From NCBI GenBank assembly GCA_949471785.1, contig CASWRE010000005.1:13342-77341 (forward strand): a stretch of 64,000 nt of DNA, read 5' to 3'. A model generated the notes under the pieces. That model saw nothing but the letters and a program-made list of their open reading frames with translations. It was not told where the DNA came from and searched no databases. Positions 10,605 to 40,856 of the stretch are shown piece after piece; positions within the stretch are counted from its first letter, which is position 1, and the number at the start of each line of letters is the position of its first letter. The DNA comes from an uncultured Lachnospiraceae bacterium. GTDB lineage: Bacteria; Bacillota; Clostridia; Lachnospirales; Lachnospiraceae. The translations under genes and the position numbers were made by a program.

Positions 10605-12461
10605 ATGTGCGGTATTTGCGGTTTTGTAGGGGCACAGAGGGGGAAAAGGGAGGACATATTGGAAGAAATGATGGAGGCCATCCGGCACAGGGGGCCTGAC
10701 GACGGAGGGAGCCGGATAAAAGGCGACGCGGCCCTGGGGTTTCGGCGGCTCTCCATCATTGACCTGGAAAACGGTGCGCAGCCCATGGAAAATGAGGCCG
10801 GGGATAAGGCGCTGGTCTTTAACGGGGAGATCTATAATTACCGGGCGCTCCGTAAGGAGCTTGCGGAGGCAGGGCATGTATTTGCCACGTATTCCGATAC
10901 GGAGGTCCTGATCCACGGCTATGAGGAGTGGGGAGAACAGATGCTGGGCCGCCTGCGGGGGATGTTTGCTTTTGTGATCTGGGATGAGGGAAAGAAGGAA
11001 CTGTTCGCGGCCAGGGATTTTTTCGGTATTAAGCCGCTGCATTATGCCATGATCGGAGGGAATTTTGTGTTTGCTTCCGAGATAAAAAGTATCCTGCGGT
11101 TTCCCGGCTGTGGGAAACGGCTGAATGAGGAGGCCCTGGAACAGTATCTTTCCTTTCAGTATTCGGTTTTGGAGGAAACGTTTTTTAAGGGGATTTACAG
11201 GCTGCAGCCGGGAAGTTTCCTGCGCTGGCGGGTGGGGGAGGACGCGCCGGAGATCTGGAGTTATTTTGAACCGTCCCTGGCGGCCCCGTGGGAAAAAAGC
11301 GAGGAGGAGTGGACGGAGGCTGTAGACCGGGCCATAAAGGGTTCCGCAGAGGCCCATAGTATTGCGGATGTGGAGATCGGCGTATTCCTGTCCGGCGGTG
11401 TGGATTCCGGGCTGATTGCCTCGGAATTTGAGGGGAAGAAGGCCTATACCGTGGGTTTTGGGCAGGAGGGCGGAAAATACAATGAGATATCCTGGGCTCG
11501 CCGGACGGCCGGAGAATGCCATCTGGAGCATCGGGGACGGCAGATCCGGGAGGAGGAATTCTGGGAGGCTGTGCCAGAGGTTCTTTACTATATGGATGAG
11601 CCTCTGGGGGATGCTTCCGCAGTGGCTCTGTATTTTCTGGCAGGGGAAGCGTCGAAGGATGTGAAGGTGGTGGTCTCCGGCGAGGGCGCCGATGAACTGT
11701 TCGGCGGCTATCGCATCTATTGCGAGCCGGAGGCGCTGCGTCTCTATCAGCGCCTCCCCCTGAAGCTGCGGAAGATCCTGGCCCGGCTGGCGGGGCATCT
11801 GCCCAACTGGAAGGGAAAGCATTTTCTGATCCGGGGAAGCAAGTCTGTGGAGGAGCGGTTCATCGGCAACGCGAATATCTTTTCCTATAAAGAGCGGAGG
11901 GAACTTTTGCGCGTGCCGACGGCGGCTCCGGGCCCCGGGAATCTTCTGGGAATGGATTACGGGCGTTCCCGGGGGATGCCGGACGCGGACAGGATGCAGG
12001 ATATTGACCTGCGCTACTGGCTGCCGGGGGATATCCTTCAGAAAGCGGACCGCATGAGCATGGCCAATTCTCTGGAAGTGCGGGTGCCTTTTCTGGATCG
12101 GGAGGGAGTCTTTGCCCTGGCCCGCCGTCTGCCCTCCGATATGAAACAGAAAGACGGCACGACGAAATATATCCTGCGGAAAGCGGCGTCGCGTCATCTG
12201 GATCTTGCTACCAGCGGCCGGCCGAAACTGGGTTTTCCCGTGCCGATCTGCCACTGGATGCGCTCTAAGGAAGGGGAAAAGCGGCTGCGGGAGGCTTTTG
12301 GGGGAGAGGCGTCGCGCCTGTATTTCCGGCAGGAAAAGCTGGAGGGGCTTCTGGAGGAGCATTTGCTGAAACGCCGCGATAATAGCCGAAAGCTGTGGGT
12401 CGTGTTTTGCTTTTGCGTGTGGTATGAAATTTATTTTTGCGGTGGGGAGGTTTATAAATAA
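10605..12461 (+). CDS. asnB: Asparagine synthase (glutamine-hydrolysing)
   Basis: N-terminal MCGICGF (Cys2 nucleophile), GPDDGG, RLSIIDL; synthetase domain SGGVDSGLIA pyrophosphatase loop. 618 aa. Confidence 0.93.
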   Translation: MCGICGFVGAQRGKREDILEEMMEAIRHRGPDDGGSRIKGDAALGFRRLSIIDLENGAQPMENEAGDKALVFNGEIYNYRALRKELAEAGHVFATYSDTEVLIHGYEEWGEQMLGRLRGMFAFVIWDEGKKELFAARDFFGIKPLHYAMIGGNFVFASEIKSILRFPGCGKRLNEEALEQYLSFQYSVLEETFFKGIYRLQPGSFLRWRVGEDAPEIWSYFEPSLAAPWEKSEEEWTEAVDRAIKGSAEAHSIADVEIGVFLSGGVDSGLIASEFEGKKAYTVGFGQEGGKYNEISWARRTAGECHLEHRGRQIREEEFWEAVPEVLYYMDEPLGDASAVALYFLAGEASKDVKVVVSGEGADELFGGYRIYCEPEALRLYQRLPLKLRKILARLAGHLPNWKGKHFLIRGSKSVEERFIGNANIFSYKERRELLRVPTAAPGPGNLLGMDYGRSRGMPDADRMQDIDLRYWLPGDILQKADRMSMANSLEVRVPFLDREGVFALARRLPSDMKQKDGTTKYILRKAASRHLDLATSGRPKLGFPVPICHWMRSKEGEKRLREAFGGEASRLYFRQEKLEGLLEEHLLKRRDNSRKLWVVFCFCVWYEIYFCGGEVYK

Positions 12462-12539
12462 AGAAAATACTTACCTTTTGGTTTATAAGGTATATAATTA
12501 AAAATGCCAATGGGCTCGGGCCGGAAAAAGAAAAAAGGG

Positions 12540-12571
12540 TTGACATTCCATTTGGTTAGTGCTACTATAAT
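12540..12571 (+). promoter_or_regulatory. Putative sigma-A promoter for the riboswitch RNA
   Basis: TTGACA at 12540-12545. The -10 candidates are TACTAT (17-nt spacer) and TATAAT (20-nt spacer). Confidence 0.4.
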
Positions 12572-12594
12572 ATCCGTATTATTCCATATTACCA

Positions 12595-12800
12595 ATTCAA
12601 GTGCTTCTGGCGAAAGCCAGTTGGAAGAGGGAATCAGGTCAGAATCCTGAACGATCCGGTCACTGTATTTAGGGAGCGAGACTCAATATTCCATTGTATG
12701 TCCTCAACGTATGAGAAGGAGAGTCAAGCGATGATCTATAAGTCAGGAAACCTGCTTGAGTTGTGAGGTTGAGACTTCCGAGTAAAGTTGAACAGCTATC
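12595..12800 (+). promoter_or_regulatory. Cobalamin (B12) riboswitch aptamer
   Basis: Core AGAGGGAATCAGGTCAGAATCCTGAACGATCCGGTCACTGTA resembles the AGGGAA..GGTG..AATCC...CCCGC.ACTGTA consensus. CCATTG...GAGAAGGA element is present. B12 box TAAGTCAGGAAACCTGC. Confidence 0.7.
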
Positions 12801-12821
12801 CGGTGTGAGAACAGGTAAGAT

Positions 12822-12848
12822 GTCTGCTTTATTCAAGCAGACTTTTTT
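12822..12848 (+). terminator. Intrinsic terminator (riboswitch expression platform)
   Basis: gtctgctt / tattc / aagcagac, followed by tttttt. Confidence 0.75.
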
Positions 12849-13504
12849 GTGGTTATACATCCGGAAGAATCTGCCGCGCCGAAGGAGCATCTTGTGTGAC
12901 GGCGGGTTCGTAGGTGGAATATCATAGAGATGGTATTTACTTGGCCAGTAACCTTGAATACGGAATAAGTGATTAAACGGCTGGGTGAATACTCCGGCAG
13001 GACGGTTTTTCTAATTCCATCGTTTTTCCTCCGCAACGAAAATGATGTTATTTCCTCTACATGAAAACCGCGCGTGCCGGGGTAGGCGTCCTCCCTGATC
13101 TGTAAGTTCTTTCGGCGGGTTCTCGCCTTTATGGAGTACTCTGTATTCCCTTATGTCTTTTGCTTTCCCCGGCTATATACAGCGCCACGTTGTTTTGTTT
13201 AGATGCAAGCACAAGTACTTGGGCATTGTTTCCTTTCTGCTGTCTCCCATAGAAATAAAATCCTCCCGTTGATTTTAGAACATTTGTTTTGTATAGTATT
13301 TATAAGGTGGTGGACTGCAGCAGAGATAAAGTCTGTCATTTACAAGATTGTTTAGAAGCATAACTCAATTCTCCTTTCCGACTTTTTGTAATTCTTTTAA
13401 TAAAAGGAATTGTTTCCCATCACTAATAGGAGAAACGGATATGGCAAATCGGAACTGTAATGTGTATAAAGGCCGGGCAAACGGTAGAAAGGCTGATTTG
13501 ACAA

Positions 13505-14521
13505 ATGAAGAATAATGAAATGGTGGAATTGGGAAATATCCTTATCTACCAGACAGAAAAAGGCGATACCAAAATTGACGTGTTTTTCCAGAATGGCGAC
13601 ATCTGGATGAATCAGTCAGCTATTGCCAGACTATATAATACGACTCCACAGAACATCACTATGCATATCCGCAATATTTATGCTGATGGTGAACTGTACG
13701 AAACTTCAACTTGTAAAGATTTCTTACAAGTTCAAACAGAGGGAAAAAGGCAGATTAAACGGAAGAAAAAGCATTACAATTTTAAAATGATTCTTGCCGT
13801 TGGCTACCGTGTCCGTTCCAATGTGGGAATGCATTTTCGGAACTGGGCTTCTGCCATCTTAGAAGAATATTCCCGCAAGGGATTTTCCATGAATGACGAA
13901 CGCCTGAAAAATCCCAAGCCGTTTGGCGAAGATTATTTTGACGAATTGTTAGAGCGCATCCGCGAAATCAGGGCGTCGGAAAAGCGGTTTTACCAAAAAA
14001 TTTGCGACATATACAAAACATCTGTTGATTATTCCAGCAATGATAAAGATGCAGAATTATTGTTTAAAACTGTTCAGAGTAAAATACATTACGGAGTACA
14101 TGGGAATACCGCGGCAGAAGTCATTATGCAGAGGGCGGACGCCACGAAAGACAATATGGGGCTGACTGCTTTTGAGGGTGCGAAAGTCCGAAAAAAAGAT
14201 GTGGATATTGCAAAAAACTATCTCAATGCGGATGAAATGCAGGAATTAAACAGGGTGGTAACGATGTACCTGGACTTCGCGGAAGACCAGGCGCGAAGGC
14301 ATAACCCTATGTATATGAAAGATTGGGAAACTTACCTCAATAATTTCCTGAATATGACAGGACGGGAAGTGCTGTCTGGAGCTGGGCACATTTCTGCAAA
14401 ACAGGCAAAGGCACATGCCTATAAACAATATGAGCTTTATGACGAGAACCGAAAAAGAATAGAAAAAAATGAGGTTGATATGTTGATTGAGGAAACAGAA
14501 CAAATAAAACAGGAAAAGTGA
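13505..14521 (+). CDS. Virulence RhuM family protein
   Basis: 338 aa. ILIYQTEKGDTKIDVFFQNGDIWMNQSAIARLYNTTPQNITMHIRNIY... and ILAVGYRVRSNVGMHFRNWA are the characteristic RhuM N-terminal and core pattern. The gene is visibly AT-rich. Confidence 0.85.
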   Translation: MKNNEMVELGNILIYQTEKGDTKIDVFFQNGDIWMNQSAIARLYNTTPQNITMHIRNIYADGELYETSTCKDFLQVQTEGKRQIKRKKKHYNFKMILAVGYRVRSNVGMHFRNWASAILEEYSRKGFSMNDERLKNPKPFGEDYFDELLERIREIRASEKRFYQKICDIYKTSVDYSSNDKDAELLFKTVQSKIHYGVHGNTAAEVIMQRADATKDNMGLTAFEGAKVRKKDVDIAKNYLNADEMQELNRVVTMYLDFAEDQARRHNPMYMKDWETYLNNFLNMTGREVLSGAGHISAKQAKAHAYKQYELYDENRKRIEKNEVDMLIEETEQIKQEK

Positions 14522-14769: not shown

Positions 14770-15324
14770 CGCGATGACGAATCAGGGGGAGTTTTAGTTT
14801 GCTGGGCGACAGTCAGACAGAACAGAATAGTTGAAAAAAGCTGTTGGGATGATAAACTTTTAGACAGGGTGATTCCCGGGCATTGTTTTCGGAATTTGCC
14901 ATAGCGGGAGACGAGAGCTTTGAGGCGCATCTGAACCGCTACAATACAATTTTTTTGAATATGCAGGATGCCCATGCCAGCAGCAAATGCCCTTTGCGAC
15001 CGCTATGGTATGGACCGGGAAAGTTTGAAATGCTGGTATGACGGTTATTCTTTTGAGGAGGCGCCGTCCATATATAACCCCCGGTCGGTGGTAAGCTGTA
15101 TGAGATTCGGAAAAATAGGCAATTACTGGAATCAGACGGCGCCCGTGAATATGGAGAGTTTTTCGAATGATATGGTTACTTTCCGGACAGAGGATGATGT
15201 GCTGACCTTTCTGATTCATCTGGGGTATCTGGGTTACAGCTATGCCAATAAAACGGTGTTCATTCCTAATAACGAAGTGCGGGCAATCTGGCAGGGATGT
15301 GGCGACTGGGAGGCAGGGCGATGA
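14770..15324 (+). pseudogene. Degraded AAA-ATPase-like/PD-(D/E)XK (PF09820/PF08011-type) gene remnant
   Basis: Pieces lie in different frames: RQNRIVEKS (decayed RRFGKS P-loop), LFSEFAIAGDESFEAHLNRYNTIFLNMQD, then LCDRYGMDRESLKCWYDGYSF..IYNPRSVVSCM..YWNQT..FLIHLGYLGY..VFIPNNEVR. A large internal part is missing and the C-terminus ends abruptly at the next gene. Confidence 0.6.
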
Positions 15325-16301
15325 AACGCATTTCTCTGGAAGAACTGCTGTATACCCGCAGGGGACAGCCCTACGGAGAGCAGCATCGGTACATTATGGA
15401 ACTTATCGGGCAGGGCAGGGTCAGGCCGGTAAAGGCCGCGGGCACGAACGGGAAAAGTCCGGCGCTGCATCTGTCCTACTGGCTTTTAGAGGAAAAGCCG
15501 GACTACAGTGCCTGGGAGGAGGAGCTTACGTACCGGCTCCATCCGAAGATCGGCGTGGACTATTATCTGGCCCACCCGGAACAGTACGGGAAGGACCGGG
15601 ATGATGTGCTGGCCCTTGACCGGTATCTGCGGGAGGATGCCGCCCTTTTGGACTACCCGGAGTCCGTCAATGAGCGGAGCTTTGAGATCTGGAACCGGGA
15701 AAAGTTTCTCGCCAGGGGGCCGGGAAAAACCATTCTCAAACGCTGCGGGCTGGAGCCGGAGGCGTTGTGCTTCTATGAAACGGAGGAACCCCTGGCCTAT
15801 TATACCCGTACCCGGGAAACGCCCCAGGAGCTTTTGATCCTGGAAAATAAGGACACTTTTTTTAGTATGCGGAAACACATGCTGGCGGGAAATGCGCGGA
15901 TTTTCGGCCGGACAATTGGGACGCTGATCTATGGGGCGGGCAAACGGATTCTGCGCTCGTTTCGGGATTTCGGCCTCTGTGCGGAGCCCTACATGGCGGA
16001 AGGAGGGAACACACTTTCCTACTTTGGCGATCTGGATTACGAGGGTATCGGCATTTATGAACAGCTCTCGGAGGGCTTTCGGGAGCGTTTTTTGATTGTG
16101 CCCTTCGTCCCGGCTTATGAGGCCATGCTGTGCAAAGCAGACCGGGTAGTCCGGCTTCCCGATACCAGCGAGGGGCAGAACAGAAAAATTTCCGGCGAGT
16201 TTTTTTCTCATTTCAGTGCGGAACAGATCCGGCGGATGGAGGTTATTCTGGAGGCGGGGCGGTACATCCCTCAGGAGATTGTGAATCTTTCGGATTTTTG
16301 A
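15321..16301 (+). CDS. jetD: JetD/MksG-like Toprim (DUF2220-type) nuclease component
   Basis: The ATG at 15321 follows GGGAGG. Toprim-type acidic motifs LILENKDTFF and YFGDLDYEGIGIY. About 326 aa. Confidence 0.7.
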   Translation: MKRISLEELLYTRRGQPYGEQHRYIMELIGQGRVRPVKAAGTNGKSPALHLSYWLLEEKPDYSAWEEELTYRLHPKIGVDYYLAHPEQYGKDRDDVLALDRYLREDAALLDYPESVNERSFEIWNREKFLARGPGKTILKRCGLEPEALCFYETEEPLAYYTRTRETPQELLILENKDTFFSMRKHMLAGNARIFGRTIGTLIYGAGKRILRSFRDFGLCAEPYMAEGGNTLSYFGDLDYEGIGIYEQLSEGFRERFLIVPFVPAYEAMLCKADRVVRLPDTSEGQNRKISGEFFSHFSAEQIRRMEVILEAGRYIPQEIVNLSDF

Positions 16302-16336
16302 AGTGGATTTTTATTACGGAAAAAGAGGACGTCAAA

Positions 16337-17950
16337 ATGCAGTATGAATTTCTCCGGCAGTTTCCCCGGCGGATGAAGCATGTGGGGATGTATGCCCTTC
16401 TGATTGCGAACAGCATCCAGAAAACCACCTGGAAACAGTACGGTTTTGTGAAAGCGGACGAGCAGATCAACCTTCTTTTTGCCGTGCTTTTATATATTAT
16501 GGAGCAGTCGCTGAAAGCGGAGGCCTGCACCATGGACGATATCGGCGCATGTATCGACAATATGAACGGGCAGCATTTTAAGAAAAAGCTGACCTATGAC
16601 GAATGCCGGCAGCTGGGGGACTTTATTGTCAATGTGGTTCTTTCCAACGAGGGGAAGGCCATGTATTTTGATGGGTTTGATTTTGAACAGAACGCCTATC
16701 ATATCATGCATGTGAGCTATGTGGCTAACAAGATTGTATATGTGGATCACGAGCTGCGGCGCACGTCCTATTATCTGACGGACGACGGGTATAATCTGCT
16801 TCTGTCCACCCTGGAAATCGAGAATAATATGAAGCTGACGGTCCACGAGATGATTTTTCAGATGCATCTGGAGAAACAGAGTTACGACAAGGCCGTGGAC
16901 GAGATCAAGAACATTTTCAATATGCTGCGGATCCAGCTGCAGAAAATCCAGGAGGCCGTGGGCCGGATCCGGCGCAATGCCCTGAATTATTCTGTGAAGG
17001 ATTATGAGGAGATTCTTCTGGAAAACCTGGACGCCATCAGCGATACCAAACGGAAATTCCAGGATTACCGGGAAATGGTGAAGGGGCGCGCCCGGGAGCT
17101 GGAGGAGGAGAATATCAACGTGCGGCGGCTCAGTAAAAAAGAGGAGGAAAAGCTTGCCCATCTGCGGGAGATTGAACAGTATTTAAACCGCACCATTGAC
17201 GAGCACCAGCGGATACTGAACAGCCATTTTGACCTGAAAGAGGTATATACGAAAGAATTGGAGGCTCTGGCGCAGATGTCGCTGATCAAACGGTTTTCTC
17301 TGCGTACGGAGTTGTATGATAAGCTGCTTTCGCGTCCGGAATCTCTGGGGGATCTGGATTATTTTCTGCGCCCTCTGTTTAACCGCGATATAGAAAAATC
17401 TTACAATATTAATAAGTCCATGGAGCTGCAGAGGCCGGTGCGGAAAAAAGAAGAGGCGGATTTCGCGGAGGAGCTGGATTTTGACGGGGAGGAATGGCAG
17501 AAGGAGCAGGAGCGGCGGCGGCGCGAAAAGCTGGGCCGCTATGAGGCCTGTCTGGGCTATCTGCTGGGGCAGGCCTGCGAAAAAGGGGAGATTTCCCTGG
17601 GCGAGCTGCGGGAAAAGAGCGGGACAGAGCGGCTGATCCCCAATGTGGAGGTTTTCAAGGAGATTATGGTGGAGCTGATCAAGTGCCAGGCCATGGATAT
17701 GGCGGCCCTTAAAAAGGAGCGCAGCGAATTCATCCAGGACGGTCCGGCGGAGTTCCAGCTCCATGAGATGGCGCTGCGCCTGGTGGAGGAAAACCCGCGG
17801 ATGGCTGGCGTCACGCGGATCGAAACGTACCGGCTGCCCGGGAGGGAACCGGTGGTATTCGAAAATGTGGTAAACGAGAAGGGCGAGAAAAAGAGTATCC
17901 GGTGTTCGGACGTGGCGGTGCGGGTGATACGGGATGGGACGTCATTTTGA
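16337..17950 (+). CDS. Hypothetical protein in the JetA/MksF (kleisin-like) position of the cassette
   Basis: The ATG at 16337 follows AAGAGGA. 537 aa, strongly helical and charged, with a long coiled-coil-like centre. The assignment rests only on size, composition and position next to the JetD-, JetB- and JetC-like genes. Confidence 0.45.
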   Translation: MQYEFLRQFPRRMKHVGMYALLIANSIQKTTWKQYGFVKADEQINLLFAVLLYIMEQSLKAEACTMDDIGACIDNMNGQHFKKKLTYDECRQLGDFIVNVVLSNEGKAMYFDGFDFEQNAYHIMHVSYVANKIVYVDHELRRTSYYLTDDGYNLLLSTLEIENNMKLTVHEMIFQMHLEKQSYDKAVDEIKNIFNMLRIQLQKIQEAVGRIRRNALNYSVKDYEEILLENLDAISDTKRKFQDYREMVKGRARELEEENINVRRLSKKEEEKLAHLREIEQYLNRTIDEHQRILNSHFDLKEVYTKELEALAQMSLIKRFSLRTELYDKLLSRPESLGDLDYFLRPLFNRDIEKSYNINKSMELQRPVRKKEEADFAEELDFDGEEWQKEQERRRREKLGRYEACLGYLLGQACEKGEISLGELREKSGTERLIPNVEVFKEIMVELIKCQAMDMAALKKERSEFIQDGPAEFQLHEMALRLVEENPRMAGVTRIETYRLPGREPVVFENVVNEKGEKKSIRCSDVAVRVIRDGTSF

Positions 17951-18015
17951 TAAGCCCGGACGCGGCAGCGTCTGGAGTTGTCAAAGTGACATTAGATACA
18001 GGAGGAATATGGGGT

Positions 18016-18729
18016 ATGGCATACGAAATGGGAGAGGTGAGGCTCAGCCAGGAGATTTTCTATTATCTGCTGGAAAACCATGAGCTCAGGGAGGACGGGG
18101 AAAATGCTCTCTACCGGGCTTATACGGAGCGGGAGGAGATCCAGAACCTGGTGAAATCCCAGGGGGAAATCGCCGGGAGCACGGTAGAGCGTTACGGGAA
18201 TGTGATCTATCTGATCCCCAAAGAAGAAAATAATTTCCTGGGTTTTTCCAAGGCCCAGTTAAAGGCGGCCCTGTGCAGATCGGGGGCTACCGACAGGGAT
18301 TATTATCTATCCCAATTTGTGGTGCTGACTCTCTTGGTGGAGTTTTTTGACGGCCAGGGGAGCAGCAGCAAGACCCGGGAATATATTCGCGTCGGCGAGC
18401 TGCAAAACTGCATTTCGGAACGGCTTAAGGAGGGGGCGCAGAATACCCCGGAGGAGCAGGAGGAGGGCGGGATCGCCTTTTCCGATATCCTGCAGGCTTA
18501 CGAGGCGCTGCGTTCCGACGACAGGGGTTCCCGGGCCCGCACCACGAAGGAGGGTTTTCTTCACCAGATCCTGGTCTTTTTGCAGAAGCAGGGGCTGGTG
18601 GAGTATGTGGAACAGGACGAGATGGTGAAAACCACTAAGAAACTGGACAATTTTATGGACTGGAATTTGCTAAATCAGAACAACTACCGCCGGGTGCGGC
18701 GGGTACTGGGGGTGGCGGAGGATGAGTAA
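18016..18729 (+). CDS. Hypothetical protein in the JetB/MksE position of the cassette
   Basis: The ATG at 18016 lies 10 nt after GGAGG. 237 aa and acidic. Its stop overlaps the start of the SMC-like gene by 8 nt. The assignment rests on size and position. Confidence 0.45.
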   Translation: MAYEMGEVRLSQEIFYYLLENHELREDGENALYRAYTEREEIQNLVKSQGEIAGSTVERYGNVIYLIPKEENNFLGFSKAQLKAALCRSGATDRDYYLSQFVVLTLLVEFFDGQGSSSKTREYIRVGELQNCISERLKEGAQNTPEEQEEGGIAFSDILQAYEALRSDDRGSRARTTKEGFLHQILVFLQKQGLVEYVEQDEMVKTTKKLDNFMDWNLLNQNNYRRVRRVLGVAEDE

Positions 18730-21700
18730 GATCAAAGCGATCCGGCTGATCAATTTGAATTACAATAATAATGCGATCAAGGTCAGCGACGAAACGTTCC
18801 ATTTGAACGGGGAGAGCACCCTGCTCTCCCTCCGGAACGGCGGCGGAAAATCGGTGCTGGTGCAGATGCTGACGGCGCCCTTTGTGCACAAACGCTACCG
18901 GGACGCCAAGGACAGGCCTTTTGAAAGTTATTTTAATACGCCTAAGCCCACCTTTATCCTGGTGGAGTGGTCGCTAGACCAGGGGGCGGGATGCGTGCTG
19001 ACGGGCATGATGGTGCGCAAAAGCCAGGCCATAGACGGGGAAGAGCCGGACAGGCTGGAGATTGTCAACATCGTCAGCGAGTACAGCGAGCCCTGTATGC
19101 AGGATATCCATCATCTGCCGGTGGTGGAGAGGGGAAAGAAAGAGATCGTCCTGAAAAGCTTCGCCGCCTGCAGGCAGCTTTTTGAACGGTTTAAACGGGA
19201 AAACCCTTCCCGGTTCTTTTTCTATGATATGGGCAACGCCGCCCAGTCCCGGCAATACTTCGATAAGCTGCGGGAATACCAGATCCATTACCGGGAGTGG
19301 GAGACTATTATTAAAAAGGTTAATCTGGAGGAGTCGGGGCTGTCTAACCTGTTTTCCGATTGCAAGGACGAGCGCGGCCTGGTGGAAAAATGGTTTCTGG
19401 AGGCTGTTGAGGGCAAGCTGAACCGGGAGCAGAACCGTATGAAGGAGTTCCAGTCCATCACCGGAAAATATGTGGGACAGTATAAGGCCAACCAGTCAAA
19501 GATCAAACGGCGGGATACCATCCGCCTGTTTAAGGAAGAGGGGAGGCAGATTGAGGAAAAAGCCGGGCAGTACCAGGCAGTAGACGAGAAAAAATCACGG
19601 CAGGAAAACCGGATCGCCGCTTTTATCGGGGAATTGGAGAAGTTAAAAGAAGAGACGGCGGGGCGGCTTTTGGCCGTGGAGGAGGAGTTTTCGGAGAACA
19701 GGCGGGCGCTGGGGCGGGTACAGTATGAAAGGTTGTCCGGAGAATATCATACCCTGGCGAAAGAACAGCGCTTTTTTGCCGGGAATCGGGATATGCTGGA
19801 GGCGGAACGGGACGCACTGGAGCGGGACGCGGCGGAGTATGAGGAGCGGCTTCATCTGCTGTTCTGCGCGAAACAGCGGGATATTGTGTCGGAGGAGCGG
19901 GAGGACTTTATGGAAGCCGGGCAGCGTCTGGCCGTCTGCCATAAAAAGACGGAAGAGCTGGCCCCGGAGCGGGATTACCTGGGGTACGCGCTTCACTGTC
20001 ATTATGCGACAGCTCTTGCGGAAAACGAGGCCGGCCTGGAGGAAAAGGACGGGGAAAAACACCGGGCCAAGCAGGCTGTTTCGGACAGGCAGGAGAAGAT
20101 CCGGGCGACAGAGCTGTCCCTGAGAGAGAATGCGTCCCGGGAAGGGGCGTTAAAGAGCAGCGTGCAATCTTATGACGAGGCGGAGACGTTTTTCAACAGC
20201 CGCTATGGGGCGGGACTTGCCCGCAATATCCTGGGCCGCTATGAGCCGGGCCTGTTGGAAATCCGGAAAGAAGAAGACCGGCAGGCCCTGGAGGAAGAAG
20301 CCCGTGGTCAGCGCAGGCGGCAGCGGCGTCTGGAGGACGGACGGGAGAAGAGCCGCAGCCTGAAAAGCGCCCTGGAGGCCCTGGACCGGGAAAACCAGCA
20401 GAAACAGTGGGAGAAAAAGCATGCCCTGGAGCTGCAAGACCTTTATGGCCGGGAGCTTGCGGAGCGCGCGCCTGTCCTGAAATATCTGGAACTTGCGGAG
20501 GCGGACCGGTTTGACACGGAGAAAATCCTCCGTGCGTCGGAGAAAAAGCTCCAGGAGATCGCCGGGCTGCGCCGCATCCTGGAAAAGGAGGAGGATCAGC
20601 TTGAGAGGGACTACCGGAAACTGACCCAGGGCCGGGTGATGGAGCTGCCCGGGGAGCTGCAGCAGGAGTTTGCGGACCGGGGCATCCGGGTGGTATATGG
20701 GATGGAGTGGCTGAAAAAGAACGGCTATTCCGAGGAACAGAATAAAAAGATCGTGCGGGATCATCCGTTTCTGCCGTATGCTCTGATCCTGTCGGGACAG
20801 GAGCTGGAAAAGCTGTCCCGGCTGGAGAGCGGCGTGTACACCTCTTTCCCGGTTCCGGTGGTTCGCCGAGAGTTTCTGGAAGAAAAGGCCGGGGAAGCCG
20901 CGGAAAGCGGCGTGATCACATTTCCCCAGGTGAGTTTTTATGTGCTTTTTAACGAAAATCTGCTGAGCGAGGAGAAGCTGGCCCTGCTGGTGCGGGAGGC
21001 AGAACGGAAGATTGAGAAAAAGAAGGAGGCCATTGCTATCCGCAACCGGGAATACGAAGAGTATTTCGCGCGGAAGGAGACGGTCCGCGGTCAGGCGGTT
21101 ACCCGGGAAAAGTACGAGGCTAATGAAACGCTCCTGGCGGAGCTGGAGCGGGCCATACAGGAATTGGCCGTAAAGCGGGACGATACGGCGGCAGATCTCG
21201 CGGCGACGGAGGAAACTGTCGCGGGCCTGGAAAAGGAGATCCGGAAAACGGAGCGGAAGATCGAAGGGATGGAGCGCAGGCAGGAAGATTTCGCCCGGCT
21301 CTGCGAGGCTTACGGACGGTATGAAGAGGACTGCCGGAGGCTGGAGGGCTGCAGGAAAGAGGCCGCCTCCCTGGAGGAAAGGCAGAAACTGGACGCAGGG
21401 CAGCTCCTGCGGGAACAGGAGCATCTGGAGAGCCTGCGGATGGAGATAGAACGTCTGTCCCGGGTGCAGCAGGAGCTTACAGAATGCTGCCGCCGGTACG
21501 CCGCCTACGCCAGGAAGCCGGAAACAGCGGCGGATGAGGAACTGGAAAAACTGGATATCGCCGGCAAGGAGGCCCGGTTCAAGGCCATTACGGCCGGCCT
21601 GTCCCAGGAGCTGCAGGAGCTGGAGCTGCGGGAGCAGAAGGCCCGGAAGCGTTATGAGGAGGCCGGACGGGAACTGCGCCGCCTGCAGAAAAAATACGGC

Positions 21701-23140
21701 CTTGCGGACGGCGCCTGGGAGGGCTGCGCCTATACCCAGCAGGAGGAAGAACATACAGAGAGGCAGCTGTCCGGCGCCCGAAAGAACCTGGAAGAGAAAA
21801 AAAGGCTCTGGAATAAGGCCCAGACGCAGGTCGCCGTGCTGGAGAGCCGGAAGAAAGCCTGTCTGGACCAGATCCGCGAGGCCTGCGGGGAGGAGGGGCC
21901 CCTGGCTTTGGAAGAGATACGGATTCGGGATTTTGACGAGGCAAAAAGCCGGCTGGAGTACCAGGGAAAGCAGCTGCAGAAAAAAGCCGCGTCCCTCCAC
22001 GAGGCAGGGCAGGGGTATGAAGAAAACCTGACGGCCCTGGCGGAATACAGCGACTTGCCCCAGACGGGACCCGTTGAATGGGAGGAACCCCTGGCAGAGC
22101 TGGACCGCGGGCAGCTGCGCCGGAAAAAGGGCGAGCTGGCCAGGGATTACAAAGCCATTCTGGAGAATCGCCGGGATGCGAAGGAGGGCCTTGTCCGGAC
22201 GCTGAACCGAATCCTGCGGATGGACGCCTTTGCGGACGAGTATTATAAAAAGCCGCTGGAGATCCTGCTGGAGCTTACAGAGGACGCGTCCCAGGTACTG
22301 CGCCAGCTGGCCACCACGGTCCAGTCCTTTGACGACCTGATGGAAAAGCTGGAGGTGGATATCTCCGTGGTGGAGAAGGAAAAGGAACGGATCGTGGAGC
22401 TTCTGGAGGAATATGTCCGGGAAATCCATGCCAACCTGGGACGGATCGACAGCAATTCCACGATTACGGTCCGGGAACGTCCTCTGAAAATGCTGAAAAT
22501 ACAGCTGCCGGACTGGGAGGAAAATGAAAGCCTCTACCGTGTCCGCCTGTCTGACCTCATTGACGAGATCACCCGCCGGGGGATTGCGATCTTTGAGCGC
22601 AACGAGAATGCCCAGGAATATTTCGGCGCCCAGCTGACCACGAAAAACCTGTACGATACCGTGGTAGGTATCGGGGAGGTACAGATCAAGCTGTACAAGA
22701 TTGAGGAGCAGCGGGAGTATCCGATCACCTGGGCCCAGGTGGCGAGAAATTCCGGCGGCGAAGGTTTCCTCTCCGCTTTTGTGGTATTGTCCAGCCTGCT
22801 GTGCTACATGCGGCGGGACGACACGGACTTTTTTGCCGATCGGAATGAGGGCAAAGTGCTGGTGATGGATAATCCCTTTGCCCAGACCAACGCCTCCCAC
22901 CTGTTAAAGCCGCTGATGGATATGGCCGGGAAAGCCAATACCCAGCTGATCTGCCTGACCGGCCTTGGCGGGGAATCCATCTACAACCGGTTTGATAACA
23001 TTTATGTGCTAAACCTGATCGCGGCCAGTCTGCGGAACGGGATGCAGTACATGAAGACCGACCATATCAAAGGCAGCGAGCCGAATACGCTGGAGGTGTC
23101 GCAGATTGAGGTGGTGGAGCAAATGGAGCTGGTGTTTTAG
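18722..23140 (+). CDS. jetC: SMC/MukB-type ATPase (JetC/MksB-like), 1472 aa
   Basis: N-terminal Walker A LRNGGGKS (aa 37-44); about 1000 aa of E/R/K/L/Q-rich coiled coil; C-terminal signature NSGGEGF and Walker-B-like VLVMDNPF. Confidence 0.75.
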   Translation: MSKIKAIRLINLNYNNNAIKVSDETFHLNGESTLLSLRNGGGKSVLVQMLTAPFVHKRYRDAKDRPFESYFNTPKPTFILVEWSLDQGAGCVLTGMMVRKSQAIDGEEPDRLEIVNIVSEYSEPCMQDIHHLPVVERGKKEIVLKSFAACRQLFERFKRENPSRFFFYDMGNAAQSRQYFDKLREYQIHYREWETIIKKVNLEESGLSNLFSDCKDERGLVEKWFLEAVEGKLNREQNRMKEFQSITGKYVGQYKANQSKIKRRDTIRLFKEEGRQIEEKAGQYQAVDEKKSRQENRIAAFIGELEKLKEETAGRLLAVEEEFSENRRALGRVQYERLSGEYHTLAKEQRFFAGNRDMLEAERDALERDAAEYEERLHLLFCAKQRDIVSEEREDFMEAGQRLAVCHKKTEELAPERDYLGYALHCHYATALAENEAGLEEKDGEKHRAKQAVSDRQEKIRATELSLRENASREGALKSSVQSYDEAETFFNSRYGAGLARNILGRYEPGLLEIRKEEDRQALEEEARGQRRRQRRLEDGREKSRSLKSALEALDRENQQKQWEKKHALELQDLYGRELAERAPVLKYLELAEADRFDTEKILRASEKKLQEIAGLRRILEKEEDQLERDYRKLTQGRVMELPGELQQEFADRGIRVVYGMEWLKKNGYSEEQNKKIVRDHPFLPYALILSGQELEKLSRLESGVYTSFPVPVVRREFLEEKAGEAAESGVITFPQVSFYVLFNENLLSEEKLALLVREAERKIEKKKEAIAIRNREYEEYFARKETVRGQAVTREKYEANETLLAELERAIQELAVKRDDTAADLAATEETVAGLEKEIRKTERKIEGMERRQEDFARLCEAYGRYEEDCRRLEGCRKEAASLEERQKLDAGQLLREQEHLESLRMEIERLSRVQQELTECCRRYAAYARKPETAADEELEKLDIAGKEARFKAITAGLSQELQELELREQKARKRYEEAGRELRRLQKKYGLADGAWEGCAYTQQEEEHTERQLSGARKNLEEKKRLWNKAQTQVAVLESRKKACLDQIREACGEEGPLALEEIRIRDFDEAKSRLEYQGKQLQKKAASLHEAGQGYEENLTALAEYSDLPQTGPVEWEEPLAELDRGQLRRKKGELARDYKAILENRRDAKEGLVRTLNRILRMDAFADEYYKKPLEILLELTEDASQVLRQLATTVQSFDDLMEKLEVDISVVEKEKERIVELLEEYVREIHANLGRIDSNSTITVRERPLKMLKIQLPDWEENESLYRVRLSDLIDEITRRGIAIFERNENAQEYFGAQLTTKNLYDTVVGIGEVQIKLYKIEEQREYPITWAQVARNSGGEGFLSAFVVLSSLLCYMRRDDTDFFADRNEGKVLVMDNPFAQTNASHLLKPLMDMAGKANTQLICLTGLGGESIYNRFDNIYVLNLIAASLRNGMQYMKTDHIKGSEPNTLEVSQIEVVEQMELVF

Positions 23141-25212: not shown

Positions 25213-25242
25213 TTGACAAACCCCGTCCCCTGCGTTTATGAT
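25213..25242 (+). promoter_or_regulatory. Putative sigma-A promoter of the valS leader
   Basis: TTGACA at 25213-25218, an 18-nt spacer, then TATGAT. Confidence 0.4.
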
Positions 25243-25254
25243 AAATCCACACAG

Positions 25255-25578
25255 AAAAAGGTAGTGAGAAAGAGGAGTATCCCAGTACTGACCGCAGAGA
25301 GGGACGTCCGTCGGCTGAAAGATGTCCCGGAGACAGGCGGGGAGAAGGTGGCTTTCGAACCGGTTCGCTGAAAATTTCCTGCAGTTTTGACTGTGGGGCA
25401 TAGTAAGCGGGCACGTTTCATCCCCGTTATCGGATGAGAGGATACGGATAGGGCGAATGAACGGATCGCTGCGTCGGGATGACGCGTTTTGTATGGCGTG
25501 TATTCGCGGTATCTGTGTTGAAATAAGGTGGTACAGCGGCTGCGTCGCCCTTTGCTTTTGGCAGAGGGCTTTTTTTTA
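25255..25578 (+). promoter_or_regulatory. T-box leader (tRNA-sensing riboswitch) of valS
   Basis: Stem I elements (GCAGAGAGGGA ... GGCTGAAAG); T-box sequence AAGGTGGTACAGCGG at 25525-25539; terminator gccctttgc/gcagagggc followed by T8. The specifier codon was not confidently assigned. Confidence 0.75.
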
Positions 25579-25637
25579 TGATTTGGTGGGTCTGGCGGAT
25601 GTACCAAAGACTGGAGAAAAAATGACAGGAGGTTATG

Positions 25638-35270: not shown

Positions 35271-35424
35271 GAGAGGTCGCAGAAAAGATATAGAAGCAGA
35301 GTTTGTATGATGAGCAGGGTGGCGATGAAATGATTTGTCAGCCTGCTTTTTATTGTACTTTTGGCTTTTTTCGCTTATAATATGAACATATTGAAACGTA
35401 GGTTATTTCTCTTATGATTTATTT

Positions 35425-36051
35425 GTGTCAAAGATCAATGCTATTGACAGTATTCTTGCAAATCAGACTTTATCTGATCTGAATCAGAAACTGGAGGAGG
35501 AGAATAAGAAGAATCAGAAACTTGATGCAGAGATAGAAAAACTTCAGAAGCTGAAAGATATTGCATCTCAGAGAGCAAACGATATCAGAGATGTTGTAGA
35601 GAAGCTTTCGAAAGACGAGCATGAAAAAGTAGGACCCGCTCTTAGTAAGTTCTATAATAAGTTGATAAGATTAAATTCTAATGAGGGAATCAACATTGTC
35701 CAGGAAAATGAGGGAATCTCATTAGTTGATGATAAGGGTAAGAATATCGTTAATGTTTTAAGTAATGGTCAGATTAGTGTCTTTATGTTGGCTCATTTTT
35801 TTGCAGGTATCAATGCAAGGAATGACCGTGAAAAGATGAAAGTGTTTTTTATCGATGACCTGACTGCCTGTATGGATGATGTAAATATGCTTGCGTTCAT
35901 GGATTTACTTAAGTATCAAATGACGTCAAAAGCAACCATGGAGCAGTTATTTTTCATTACCTGTGATGACCGTATTAGTAAGTTATTGAAGTATAAGTTA
36001 AAAGGACGTGGGATTGAATTGCGTGAACTTTTAGAAACAGATTTCGCATAG
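35425..36051 (+). pseudogene. C-terminal remnant of an SMC/RecF-like ABC ATPase
   Basis: Only about 208 aa: a coiled-coil segment, signature LSNGQIS, Walker B KVFFIDDL and a D-loop. There is no N-terminal Walker A half, and the ORF opens directly after a stop. Confidence 0.6.
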
Positions 36052-36058
36052 TATTCTG

Positions 36059-36832
36059 GTGATATGTCAAGAACTTTTAGATTTCAAATTATTTTTTACC
36101 GTAAAGATAAAAAAGAAGTATCACCTTGAATGCGAAAGCAGCCTGCCGGATGGCAGAATGATGATAAGGCTTTTTGAATATGATGCCCAGATCGCACTTG
36201 ACGAGGGGGAGGTCACAGAGGAAGTTTTGAGAGTGACATTTCCCAATACGGCGGTGTTATATCTTCGGACGTATAAAAAGACACCGGATAAAATGAAGTA
36301 TGTGATTGTTACGCCTGGTGGAACTGTACAGTATGATGTACCAATCATGAAAGTGCAGACTTATTCGTTGGATGATATTTTTGAAAAGAAGTTGCTGCTT
36401 TTGATCCCGTTTTATATTTTCTCACATGAGAAGCGGTTTCCGGAGTATAATGATAATGAAGAGAAGCTGTCAGAATTGAAAGTGGAATACCATACGATTC
36501 TGGACAGGCTCAATGAGATGGAACATTGGGGAGTGATCGGGGCATTTGATAAGAGGACGATTATAGAGTTTTCTAACGATGTGATAAAAGAAATCGCACA
36601 AAAATATGAAAATGTGCAGAAAGGCGTAGGTGATATCATGGGTGGGGCGTTGATTGAAACAGAGGCAAGAACGATATTGAATCAGGGAAAAAGCCAGGGT
36701 AGAGATGAAACAAAAAAGAAGATGGCGCTTCGAATGTTGGATGATGGAGAGTTACCTGTTGAGAAAATTGCACGGTATTCGGGACTCGAAGTTGCGGAAG
36801 TGGAGCAACTTGTAAAGGGTCGGGCAAAGTAA
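36059..36832 (+). CDS. Rpn-family recombination-promoting nuclease / putative transposase (YhgA-like), probably N-terminally truncated
   Basis: KKYHLECESSLPDGRMMIRLFEYDAQIAL (hLEFQS-type core), plus a C-terminal ...KMALRMLDDGELPVEKIARYSGLEVAEVEQL tail typical of this family. The frame only opens at 36035, so the usual N-terminal 30-40 aa are missing. Confidence 0.6.
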   Translation: MICQELLDFKLFFTVKIKKKYHLECESSLPDGRMMIRLFEYDAQIALDEGEVTEEVLRVTFPNTAVLYLRTYKKTPDKMKYVIVTPGGTVQYDVPIMKVQTYSLDDIFEKKLLLLIPFYIFSHEKRFPEYNDNEEKLSELKVEYHTILDRLNEMEHWGVIGAFDKRTIIEFSNDVIKEIAQKYENVQKGVGDIMGGALIETEARTILNQGKSQGRDETKKKMALRMLDDGELPVEKIARYSGLEVAEVEQLVKGRAK

Positions 36833-36910
36833 GGTTTTTCAGTTATGTATTGGTATTGTTAGGAATTTAATATACAAAGAAGGATTTTTGGTGGGAAAAG
36901 CGGTGATACA

Positions 36911-39442: not shown

Positions 39443-40089
39443 TGTATCGGATCGGTATCATTGACGACGCAAAAAGCGAACGTGATGACATACAGGTGTC
39501 TGTTTTGGACAATGTGGGCTGGAATGCGGAAGTTGAATTTAAAGAATATGAGCTGGAAGGAAGAACGCGGGAAGAAATCGTTGGCGAAATACGGCAGGAC
39601 GTGGAAGAGGGAATGATACATGCCTTGATCGTTGATTTTAAATTAGATACGACGGCAGATGTGATAGAGGGATGGGAGATTATCGAGTTTATGCATGAAG
39701 AAACGCCGGAATTTCCCGTCGTCATCATGACGAACGCACCGGACGAAAGCAAAAGATCGCAACATACGGACGCAGATAAAGTATATGCAAAAAAGGTATT
39801 TCTGAAACCGGATCTTGATATCACAAAAGAGCTTGTGAACAACATTATGTTGAATATGGAAAAATATACTTCCCGTAGAAAAGAGCTGGAGGAGAGATTA
39901 GAAATCTGTCTGAAAAGGCTGGACGAAAACGGGGCAAGTCAGGAGACGCTGGAAGAAGTCATTACGGTAGAAAACGAACTGAGCAGATACAAACAGATCT
40001 ATCAGACAACCGTGGATACGGCGTTGGACATGTCCGACTTAAAAGAAGCGTTTGAAGAACTGGACAAATATGAAAAACTGTTAGGGTGA
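39442..40089 (+). CDS. Receiver (REC) domain protein with a C-terminal coiled-coil extension
   Basis: The ATG overlaps the upstream stop (TGATG). IGIIDD, ALIVDFKLD (candidate phospho-acceptor Asp), VVIMTN, YAKK; then about 90 aa of helical, charged sequence. No DNA-binding output domain was recognised. Confidence 0.65.
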   Translation: MYRIGIIDDAKSERDDIQVSVLDNVGWNAEVEFKEYELEGRTREEIVGEIRQDVEEGMIHALIVDFKLDTTADVIEGWEIIEFMHEETPEFPVVIMTNAPDESKRSQHTDADKVYAKKVFLKPDLDITKELVNNIMLNMEKYTSRRKELEERLEICLKRLDENGASQETLEEVITVENELSRYKQIYQTTVDTALDMSDLKEAFEELDKYEKLLG

Positions 40090-40093
40090 GGTT

Positions 40094-40732: not shown

Positions 40733-40856
40733 ACAAATCCTTATCTAGAGCGGGCGCTAATGACGGGAATCACGAGGGTCAGCAAGGAATCAATTTTTTC
40801 GGATTCCGGCGCGGAGAATCCGGAGAAACTGCAGGCAACGATTACTTGCAGGGTGT

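What the first reader, a model, noticed from the sequence alone, without database searches (positions are those of the whole stretch)
15321..23140. Wadjet/MksBEFG-like SMC-Toprim cassette with non-canonical D-A-B-C order and divergent subunits
Four co-directional, closely packed genes match the parts list of Wadjet (JetABCD) / MksBEFG plasmid-restriction condensins. (1) A 326-aa protein carries Toprim-type motifs (LILENKDTFF, YFGDLDYEGIGIY), as in JetD/MksG. (2) A 537-aa helical, charged protein has the size of the kleisin JetA/MksF. (3) A 237-aa acidic protein has the size of JetB/MksE, and its stop overlaps the next start by 8 nt. (4) A 1472-aa SMC/MukB-type ATPase closes the cassette. Several things are unusual. 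The nuclease gene comes first rather than last. The SMC is roughly a third longer than the roughly 1100 aa usual for JetC. The JetD-like protein is short, with apparently no long N-terminal arm. In the two middle proteins I cannot recognise any family motif, so they may be too divergent for current Wadjet models. It could be a new Wadjet subtype or a distinct SMC-based defence or DNA-surveillance system.
Basis: partly seen in the sequence, partly recalled or inferred. Interest (0 to 1): 0.8.

Follow-up and report, generated by a model that had tools for sequence, protein, structure and literature searches.

The report
Ordinary type III Wadjet anti-plasmid operon
The four genes are a standard, already catalogued type III Wadjet system (an SMC-type DNA motor plus a nuclease, thought to destroy incoming plasmids), and the "odd" gene order and protein sizes are simply the norm for that type.

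Summary
The four co-directional genes are there exactly as described: 15321-16301, 16337-17950, 18016-18729 and 18722-23140, with an 8-nt overlap between the last two.

They are not divergent or non-canonical. PADLOC's 2023 models match all four end to end:
- JetD3, E = 6.9e-117
- JetA3, E = 2.8e-262
- JetB3, E = 8.2e-130
- JetC3, E = 0 (profile 1471 positions, protein 1472 aa)

The D-A-B-C order, the ~330-aa JetD and the ~1470-aa JetC are the family norm. All 76 complete related loci from species-representative genomes share them; the other 4 of 80 are cut by contig ends. So do distant (18-32% identical) type III operons on Bacillus mycoides and Clostridium perfringens megaplasmids.

Published work already defines type III partly by its operon organisation and notes its longer coiled coils.

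The likely function is restriction of small circular plasmids: JetABC senses the DNA and the Toprim nuclease JetD cleaves it. This is inferred from types I and II and from in vivo data on a Bacillus thuringiensis type III system.

One point is worth following. Every type III JetC examined has Asn, not the catalytic Glu, after the Walker B Asp (VLVMDNPF).

Verdict: already known, low interest.

The parts
14831..14858 (+). Candidate promoter of the jet operon: TTGAAA, 16 nt, TAAACT, with TG before the -10 element.
   Evidence: Found by the consensus scan. The same TTGAAA...TG(A/G)TAAACT element lies upstream of jetD in the two nearest relatives, L001 and L002, although the surrounding sequence differs. 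This is inferred, not shown.
15321..16301 (+). jetD (type III), 326 aa. An N-terminal winged-helix/CAP-like region is followed by a Toprim nuclease domain. The catalytic candidates are E175 (15843-15845) and D237-x-D239 (16029-16037).
   Evidence: PADLOC JetD3 PDLC00592, E = 6.9e-117, residues 1-326. Pfam JetD_C, 22.9 bits. E175, D237 and D239 are invariant in 20 homologues and in the Bacillus and Clostridium type III JetD. The AF2 model has pLDDT 82, and its best PDB match is an M. mazei topoisomerase VI chain (E = 6.4e-4), followed by type II topoisomerase Toprim domains.
16337..17950 (+). jetA (type III), 537 aa, the presumed kleisin subunit.
   Evidence: PADLOC JetA3 PDLC00561, E = 2.8e-262, residues 1-532 of 537. 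It sits between jetD and jetB in all related loci. The kleisin fold was not tested here.
18016..18729 (+). jetB (type III), 237 aa, DUF6063, the presumed KITE subunit.
   Evidence: PADLOC JetB3 PDLC00572, E = 8.2e-130. Pfam DUF6063, E = 3.5e-79. The AF2 model is low-confidence (pLDDT 52), yet its ten best PDB matches come from JetABC and MukE-containing entries, with weak E-values of 0.05-0.4.
18722..23140 (+). jetC (type III), 1472 aa, an SMC-type ABC ATPase. Walker A GGGKS is at aa 40-44 (18839-18853). A hinge-like conserved block is at about aa 641-760 (20642-21001). The signature motif SGGE is at aa 1344-1347 (22751-22762). Walker B VLVMDN is at aa 1379-1384 (22856-22873), with Asn in the place of the usual catalytic Glu.
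   Evidence: PADLOC JetC3 PDLC00583, E = 0, 2013.6 bits, residues 1-1472 against profile 1-1471. Motifs and conservation are shown. hhalign against E. coli MukB aligns SGGE with STGE and VLVMDNPF with LLFLDEAA (E = 0.0018, probability 14.6%). The profile search of PDB sequences found only coiled-coil matches.

Best explanation
This is an intact, chromosomally encoded type III Wadjet (JetD-JetA-JetB-JetC) system in a gut Lachnospiraceae bacterium. It sits in a small variable island between a cobalamin-riboswitch block and the valS T-box leader.

Most likely mechanism, inferred by homology to types I and II:
1. JetC dimers, bridged by the kleisin JetA and the KITE protein JetB, load on DNA and extrude it.
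2. On a small circular molecule, extrusion runs to completion and the motors stall.
3. The stalled complex recruits or activates the Toprim nuclease JetD, which cuts the DNA.
4. Plasmids are therefore destroyed, while the much larger chromosome and linear DNA are spared.

Shown here: family membership of all four proteins, the conserved gene order, the conserved Toprim and ABC-ATPase motifs, and the patchy, island-like distribution.

Inferred: the subunit roles, loop extrusion, and plasmid specificity.
For: - **HMM matches.** All four proteins match PADLOC type III models over their full length.
- **Cross-lineage check.** A Bacillus mycoides plasmid operon with the same order hits other sub-models of the same four type III families.
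- **Gene order.** 76 of 80 related loci are D+A+B+C+; the other 4 are cut by contig ends. No conserved fifth gene flanks the block.
- **JetD.** E175, D237 and D239 are invariant. The fold matches topoisomerase VI and type II topoisomerase Toprim domains.
- **JetC.** Walker A, the signature motif and the Walker B Asp are conserved in 72-77 homologues. The layout is head, coiled coil, hinge-like block, coiled coil, head.
- **JetB.** The best structural matches are from JetABC and MukE-containing entries, though weakly.
- **Literature.** Three Wadjet types are distinguished by operon organisation and domain composition, with B. thuringiensis as the type III representative. The B. thuringiensis operon blocks transformation and conjugation of circular plasmids in B. 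subtilis, and a JetD Toprim Glu-to-Ala mutation abolishes this. Types I and II cleave circular but not linear DNA by extrusion-cleavage. Wadjet-III tends to have longer coiled coils.
- **Context.** The adjacent RhuM gene matches the PADLOC candidate defence family PDC-S05 (E = 1e-135). The flank between the riboswitch block and jetD differs between near-identical genomes.
Against: - No experiment exists for this Lachnospiraceae subfamily, and type III is described as largely uncharacterised.
- JetC3 carries Asn where SMC and MukB ATPases have the catalytic Glu. ATP hydrolysis, and therefore loop extrusion, may not work as it does in type I.
- Sequence searches of the PDB with the JetD, JetC, JetB and JetA profiles found no solved relatives.
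- No JetD structure appeared among the 50 best fold matches of the JetD model.
- The kleisin fold of JetA was not tested, and the JetB model is low-confidence.
- The published residue number for the B. thuringiensis JetD Toprim Glu is E298. This does not fit the 326-351 aa JetD3 proteins seen here, where the Glu is E175 or E205. I could not obtain that sequence to resolve the mismatch.
Confidence: 0.85

Rival explanations
1. It is a new Wadjet subtype, or a distinct SMC-based defence system, with rearranged gene order and divergent subunits.
For: Pfam and NCBIfam barely recognise the proteins. JetD_C scores 22.9 bits, ORF2 and ORF4 have no significant hit, and no NCBIfam model matches. No PDB relative is found by sequence.
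Against: All four proteins match 2023 PADLOC type III models end to end, with E-values from 1e-117 to 0. Order and sizes are identical in 76 of 76 complete relatives and in the Bacillus and Clostridium operons. NCBI already names homologues as JetD domain-containing proteins and DUF6063 proteins.
Confidence: 0.03
2. It is a type III Wadjet system by descent, but it works differently from types I and II. JetC3 lacks the Walker B catalytic Glu, so the motor may be a slow or non-canonical ATPase. It might clamp or sense DNA by ATP binding rather than extrude loops processively, or it might use another catalytic residue.
For: The motif hhhhDNPF is present in all 72 type III JetC C-termini surveyed, including C. 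perfringens, and MAFFT alignment shows the same DNPF in B. mycoides. hhalign places N1384 opposite the Glu of the MukB LFLDE motif. Type III is described as uncharacterised.
Against: The Walker A Lys, the signature motif and the Walker B Asp are strictly kept, which argues for a working nucleotide cycle. The hhalign probability is only 14.6%. A type III system restricts plasmids in vivo just as types I and II do. From my own knowledge, other ABC-type ATPases lack this Glu and still hydrolyse ATP, for example DndD-like proteins with a 'DTP' motif.
Confidence: 0.1
3. It is a housekeeping MksBEF-like condensin used for chromosome organisation, not defence.
For: The parts list is MukBEF-like, and the location is chromosomal, next to asnB and valS.
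Against: A conserved Toprim nuclease gene is always part of the block. Distribution is patchy: relatives matching two subfamily-specific peptide patterns were found in 395 stretches of a collection of 185,579 species-representative genomes, which is a lower bound. The flanks vary even between near-identical genomes. Defence-type genes lie next to it, and in relatives some are nested inside the operon.
Confidence: 0.02

Closest known systems
Wadjet type III (Doron et al. 2018 classification; PADLOC JetA3/JetB3/JetC3/JetD3; tested representative from Bacillus thuringiensis)
   Same: All four proteins match the type III HMMs over their full length. The order is D-A-B-C, with a JetD of about 330-350 aa, a DUF6063 JetB and a JetC of about 1450-1520 aa. 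This is the same as in the B. mycoides p481 and C. perfringens pJFP838A type III operons.
   Different: Nothing at family level. It belongs to a Lachnospiraceae sub-cluster (models PDLC00592, 00561, 00572, 00583). Its identity to the B. mycoides and C. perfringens proteins is only 18-32%. I could not compare it directly with the B. thuringiensis proteins that were tested.
Wadjet type I (E. coli GF4-3, P. aeruginosa PA14, B. cereus Q1 JetABCD; C. glutamicum MksBEFG)
   Same: The four-part logic is the same: kleisin, KITE, SMC and Toprim nuclease. The Toprim Glu and DxD motif are conserved, and the presumed function is plasmid restriction.
   Different: The gene order is A-B-C-D. JetC is about 1100 aa and has a Walker B Glu, which is the E1022Q mutant site. 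JetD is longer, with an arm-CAP domain. Type I Pfam families are absent here, and JetD1 models give only E of about 3e-4 over about 50 residues.
Wadjet type II (Neobacillus vireti; PDB 9QE0)
   Same: It has an enlarged SMC with long coiled coils and, according to the literature, a hinge without a channel. It cleaves circular DNA.
   Different: Type II has a tandem, double-size KITE protein and DUF2397/2398/2399-type subunits. Here JetB is a single 237-aa DUF6063 protein, and JetD2 models give only E = 0.0015.
MukBEF / MksBEF condensins
   Same: The architecture is SMC-kleisin-KITE. The C-terminal head of JetC aligns weakly with MukB across the signature and Walker B motifs. The best fold matches of JetB include chains of MukE-containing entries.
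   Different: These condensins have no nuclease subunit and act in chromosome organisation. MukB keeps the Walker B Glu.
Topoisomerase VI subunit A / Spo11 (CAP + Toprim)
   Same: The best structural match of the JetD model is a chain of the M. mazei topoisomerase VI complex, over about 300 columns (E = 6.4e-4).
   Different: Sequence identity is about 10% and the TM-score is 0.31. JetD acts as a nuclease within an SMC complex, not as a topoisomerase (literature).

Membership tests
Wadjet type III | All four type III subunit families (JetA3, JetB3, JetC3, JetD3) are encoded together in one cluster. | tested here: met
   One search gives full-length best hits of E = 2.8e-262, 8.2e-130, 0 and 6.9e-117. 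The genes are adjacent and co-directional.
Wadjet type III | The operon organisation typical of the type, in the order jetD-jetA-jetB-jetC. | tested here: met
   76 of 76 complete related loci share it, as do the PADLOC-verified B. mycoides type III operon and the C. perfringens operon. The literature says the types differ in operon organisation. The explicit published order for type III could not be read, because Doron et al. 2018 is not held.
Wadjet (any type) | JetD has a Toprim nuclease domain with a conserved catalytic Glu and a DxD motif. | tested here: met
   E175 and D237/D239 are invariant. Pfam JetD_C scores above its cut-off. The fold matches topoisomerase VI and type II topoisomerase Toprim domains.
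Wadjet (any type) | JetC is an SMC-type ABC ATPase with Walker A, a signature motif, Walker B, long coiled coils and a hinge. | tested here: inconclusive
   Walker A GGGKS, signature SGGE and the Walker B Asp are conserved. The composition and conservation profile fits head, coiled coil, hinge, coiled coil, head. The weak hhalign match to the MukB head has E = 0.0018. The Walker B catalytic Glu is replaced by Asn, as in every type III JetC seen. No structure model was made, because the protein exceeds the 1200-aa limit.
Wadjet (any type) | JetB is a KITE protein with tandem winged helices. | tested here: inconclusive
   The AF2 model has pLDDT of only 52. Its top ten Foldseek hits come from JetABC and MukE-containing entries, but with E = 0.05-0.4. 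hhalign against E. coli MukE found nothing.
Wadjet (any type) | JetA is a kleisin that bridges the SMC head and neck. | not tested
   Only the JetA3 HMM match is available.
Wadjet (any type) | The system restricts circular plasmids and needs all four subunits. | not testable with these tools
   This rests on literature only. The B. thuringiensis type III operon restricts pHCMC05, pC194 and pLS20 in B. subtilis.
Wadjet type I | Type I subunit families: DUF3375, DUF4194, a JetC of about 1100 aa, and a DUF3322/DUF2220 JetD. | tested here: not met
   No type I Pfam or PADLOC model matches JetA, JetB or JetC. JetD1 models give E >= 3e-4 over the DxD region only.
MukBEF/MksBEF condensin | A three-gene SMC-kleisin-KITE system without a nuclease. 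| tested here: not met
   A conserved Toprim nuclease gene is part of every locus.

The most novel reading that the evidence does not exclude
Type III Wadjet as a whole, this operon included, runs on an SMC ATPase that naturally lacks the Walker B catalytic glutamate. The motif is D-N-P-F in the 74 type III JetC sequences examined (72 relatives by tblastn, plus the window and B. mycoides by alignment). If so, plasmid sensing by type III may not rely on canonical ATP-hydrolysis-driven loop extrusion, or it may use an unrecognised catalytic residue. This would be a property of the known family, not of this locus.
Probability: 0.12. Interest if true: 0.5.

Novelty: already known. Interest (0 to 1): 0.1.

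Why it matters
For this locus it matters little. It adds one more instance of a catalogued defence system that is common in gut Lachnospiraceae. In practice it predicts that this organism will resist small circular plasmids, so deleting jetD or the whole operon should help make it genetically tractable.

The wider value is as a reminder that type III Wadjet is abundant yet biochemically and structurally unexplored. No PDB relative is detectable by sequence. Its JetC has Asn in place of the catalytic Glu, and that is directly testable.

Tried and rejected
- **NCBIfam** gave no model for any of the four proteins.
- **Pfam** recognises only JetD_C (weakly) and DUF6063.
- **PDB sequence and profile searches** with JetD, JetC, JetB and JetA returned nothing, or only coiled-coil matches.
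- **JetB structure prediction** was low-confidence (pLDDT 52) because the available homologues are more than 80% identical. Its fold matches are therefore only suggestive.
- **hhalign of JetB3 against E. coli MukE** found nothing.
- **Doron et al. 2018** could not be read. The published type III gene order is therefore supported only indirectly.
- **The supplement of Liu et al.** gave no identifiers for the B. thuringiensis genes, so the E298 numbering mismatch remains open.
- **A conserved fifth gene** next to the cassette was looked for and not found.
- **The cobalamin riboswitch upstream** was checked as a possible general feature of these operons. It is present in only the two nearest relatives among 80 loci.
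- **The related-loci set is narrow.** It came from two peptide patterns specific to this subfamily, so it says nothing direct about all type III lineages. The two plasmid operons were used to widen it.
Full report
**1.

One search lists four co-directional + strand ORFs.

- 15321-16301, 326 aa from MKRISLEE. An earlier ATG at 15297 is possible, but most of the aligned homologues start at MKR.
- 16337-17950, 537 aa.
- 18016-18729, 237 aa.
- 18722-23140, 1472 aa.

The spacers are 35 nt and 65 nt, and the last two genes overlap by 8 nt. The quoted Toprim-type motifs (LILENKDTFF, YFGDLDYEGIGIY) and the Walker A motif (GGGKS, K43) are present. The block has 52-60% G+C and is flanked by lower-GC stretches of 41-45% at about 13-15 kb and 23-25 kb.

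**2. What it is**

PADLOC-DB v2.0.0 models match all four proteins from end to end.

| Protein | Best model | E-value | Coverage |
|---|---|---|---|
| ORF1 | JetD3 PDLC00592 | 6.9e-117 | residues 1-326 |
| ORF2 | JetA3 PDLC00561 | 2.8e-262 | residues 1-532 of 537 |
| ORF3 | JetB3 PDLC00572 | 8.2e-130 | residues 1-237 |
| ORF4 | JetC3 PDLC00583 | 0 (2013.6 bits) | 1-1472 on a 1471-position profile |

Each protein also hits several other sub-models of the same type III family. Type I and II JetD models match only around the DxD motif, with E >= 3e-4.

Pfam gives DUF6063 for ORF3 (E = 3.5e-79) and JetD_C just above its cut-off for ORF1. It gives nothing significant for ORF2 or ORF4, and NCBIfam gives nothing. 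This explains why a reader working by eye found no family motif. That is what happens.

**3. The "unusual" features are the family norm**

- **JetD homologues.** ORF1 has about 2000 homologous 90%-identity clusters with E <= 1e-5. The 120 best are 319-365 aa and mostly 326 aa. They come mainly from Lachnospiraceae gut genomes and MAGs. NCBI names some of them [quoted passage not shown].
- **Related loci.** A scan of one genome per GTDB species, using two subfamily-specific peptide patterns, found 395 relatives, and I fetched 80 loci.
- **Gene order.** tblastn with the four window proteins shows the order D+A+B+C+ in 76 loci. The remaining four are cut by contig ends. JetC spans about 4.4 kb in the loci where it is complete.
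- **Distant operons.** Operons at 18-32% identity on the 481-kb plasmid p481 of Bacillus mycoides and the 404-kb plasmid pJFP838A of Clostridium perfringens have the same order and sizes. JetD is 351 and 339 aa, JetA 503 and 547 aa, the DUF6063 protein 249 and 240 aa, and JetC 1519 and 1450 aa. The B. mycoides proteins hit other PADLOC type III sub-models at E = 1e-66 to 1e-157.
- **Literature.** The three Wadjet types are said to be distinguished by operon organisation and domain composition, with B. thuringiensis as the type III example. [quoted passage not shown]
- **No extra gene.** No conserved fifth gene flanks the cassette.

**4. Anatomy of the subunits**

*JetD.* E175 (ILENKD), D237 and D239 (GDLDYEG) and the C-terminal PQE motif are invariant across 20 homologues and across the Bacillus and Clostridium proteins. 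An AlphaFold2 model (pLDDT 82) is best matched by a chain of the Methanosarcina mazei topoisomerase VI complex, over about 300 columns (E = 6.4e-4, probability 1.00). I take this 359-aa chain to be the A subunit (CAP + Toprim) from its length. Toprim domains of gyrase, topo IV and topo II follow. The TM-scores are low (0.3), and no JetD structure appears in the top 50. The fold assignment is therefore at domain level only.

*JetC.* The conservation and composition profile shows the following layout.

- Conserved heads at about aa 1-240 and 1200-1472.
- Two long, poorly conserved arms rich in E, K, R, Q, L and A.
- A conserved block rich in Pro, Gly and aromatic residues at about aa 641-760, as expected for a hinge.

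Walker A, the signature motif SGGE and the Walker B Asp are conserved in 72-77 homologues. A profile comparison with E. coli MukB gives a weak but sensible alignment (E = 0.0018, probability 14.6%). It pairs SGGE with STGE and VLVMDNPF with LLFLDEAA.

*JetB.* The model is poor (pLDDT 52) because the retrievable homologues are more than 80% identical. Even so, its ten best PDB matches come from these entries:

- P. aeruginosa JetABC and E. coli JetABC
- several entries that contain MukE
- the N. vireti type II JetABC complex

The E-values are 0.05-0.4, and unrelated membrane proteins follow. I take this as suggestive of a KITE fold, not as proof.

*JetA.* This was not tested beyond the HMM match.

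*Solved relatives.* None of the four profiles finds a solved relative by sequence. This fits the published statement that type III is largely uncharacterised.

**5. How it most likely works**

This section is inference. By homology with types I and II, JetABC is a dimer-of-dimers SMC motor that extrudes DNA. Complete extrusion of a small circle stalls the motors. The JetD Toprim nuclease then cuts the trapped DNA, while linear and very large DNA escape.

For type III itself the evidence is in vivo only. The B. thuringiensis operon blocks transformation by pHCMC05 and pC194 and conjugation of pLS20 in B. subtilis. This depends on the JetD Toprim Glu.

Two caveats apply.

- **The Walker B asparagine.** In the 74 type III JetC sequences I examined, the residue after the Walker B Asp is Asn (hhhhDNPF). 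SMC and MukB ATPases, and type I JetC (the E1022Q site), have the catalytic Glu there. This is a family-wide trait, not a peculiarity of this locus, and its effect on the ATPase cycle is unknown.
- **The E298 numbering.** The published residue number for the B. thuringiensis Toprim Glu is E298. It does not fit the JetD3 proteins seen here, where the Glu is E175 in the window protein and E205 in the 351-aa B. mycoides protein. I could not obtain the B. thuringiensis sequence to resolve this.

**6. Context**

The cassette lies between asnB (10605-12461) and valS (25635-28337). valS is preceded by a T-box leader at 25255-25555, which scores 83 bits, below Rfam's gathering score of 93, with E = 1.7e-18.

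Upstream of the cassette are three features.

- A cobalamin riboswitch.
- A RhuM-family gene that matches the PADLOC candidate defence family PDC-S05 (E = 1e-135).
- A decayed AAA-ATPase_like/PDDEXK_9 gene.

The nearest relative is L001, a mouse-gut Lachnospiraceae MAG. It is 97.6% identical from jetD to valS, but it lacks the RhuM segment and has a different upstream neighbourhood.

A promoter-like element, TTGAAA-16 nt-TAAACT at 14831-14858, is shared with L001 and L002. It may drive the operon. This is inferred.

**7. Verdict**

The interpretation as a Wadjet-like system is right, but the claim of a non-canonical or new subtype is wrong. This is an ordinary member of the already defined type III Wadjet family, so novelty is "already known" and interest is low. 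The only lead with some wider value is the Walker B Asn of type III JetC, which concerns the whole family.

Noticed in passing
window 22856-22873 (JetC aa 1379-1384); also L081, L082 and 70 other loci: Type III JetC has Asn, not the catalytic Glu, after the Walker B Asp (VLVMDNPF). This holds in all 72 relatives surveyed by tblastn, including C. perfringens, and MAFFT alignment shows the same DNPF in B. mycoides (L081). hhalign places it opposite the Glu of the MukB LFLDE motif.
   Followed up: partly
window 14862-15285 (+); L033 11002-12591; L065 11043-12620; L021 and L022 at about 11100-11640: Directly upstream of jetD is a two-piece remnant of an AAA-ATPase_like + PDDEXK_9 gene, covering aa 65-106 and 239-365 of a 525-aa homologue. 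Intact copies of this gene sit inside the operon, between jetD and jetA, in two Dorea loci, and decayed copies are present in two more.
   Followed up: partly
L034 11129-13206: A complete Septu system (PtuA1 E = 2.3e-141, PtuB1 E = 8.9e-44) is nested between jetD and jetA of a Wadjet III operon in a Dorea MAG.
   Followed up: partly
L033 14277-15727; L045 13541-15072: Other genes are nested inside Wadjet III operons. A split SLFN_AlbA_2 + HATPase_c_4 + HTH gene lies between jetA and jetB in L033. Three small ORFs (DUF4869, an ORF with a sub-threshold AAA_22 match, and one unknown) lie between jetB and jetC in L045.
   Followed up: partly
window 12530-13125 (riboswitch 12582-12773); L001 9035-9626; L002 9265-9860: A cobalamin riboswitch (RF00174, 93.6 bits) has its own promoter-like site and terminator but no B12-related gene downstream. 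The riboswitch plus a conserved non-coding tail of about 290 nt is 94-97% identical in three genomes. In all three it lies 0.15-2.2 kb upstream of jetD. It is absent from the other 78 loci. It may be a riboswitch-controlled small RNA or a relic of a displaced gene.
   Followed up: partly
window 13505-14521 (+): A RhuM-family gene (Pfam E = 2.9e-109) matches the PADLOC candidate defence family PDC-S05 (E = 1e-135). It lies in a low-GC segment that is absent from the near-identical genome L001.
   Followed up: partly
window about 35400-40750 (+): A second low-GC island (40-46% G+C) holds an AAA_13/LmuB-like C-terminal fragment (35425-36051), an 843-aa protein with two GHKL ATPase domains (36911-39442) and a PtuB-like HNH protein (40094-40732). 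It may be another, possibly degraded, defence locus.
   Followed up: partly
L081 (B. mycoides p481, 481 kb); L082 (C. perfringens pJFP838A, 404 kb): Type III Wadjet operons are carried on very large plasmids, well above the roughly 50-100 kb size limit reported for Wadjet targets. On p481 the operon is followed by SLATT, DUF2971 and RES-domain genes.
   Followed up: no
literature compared with L081 4682-5737 and window 15321-16301: Liu et al. give E298A as the Toprim Glu mutation of the B. thuringiensis (type III) JetD. In the JetD3 proteins seen here the Glu is at position 175 (326 aa) or 205 (351 aa). This could be a different gene start, a different protein or a numbering slip, and it is unresolved.
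   Followed up: partly
window 25255-25555 (+): A T-box leader lies upstream of valS. It scores 83.1 bits, below Rfam's gathering score of 93, with E = 1.7e-18. It has a promoter-like site at 25213-25242 and a terminator at 25547-25569. This is ordinary.
   Followed up: yes
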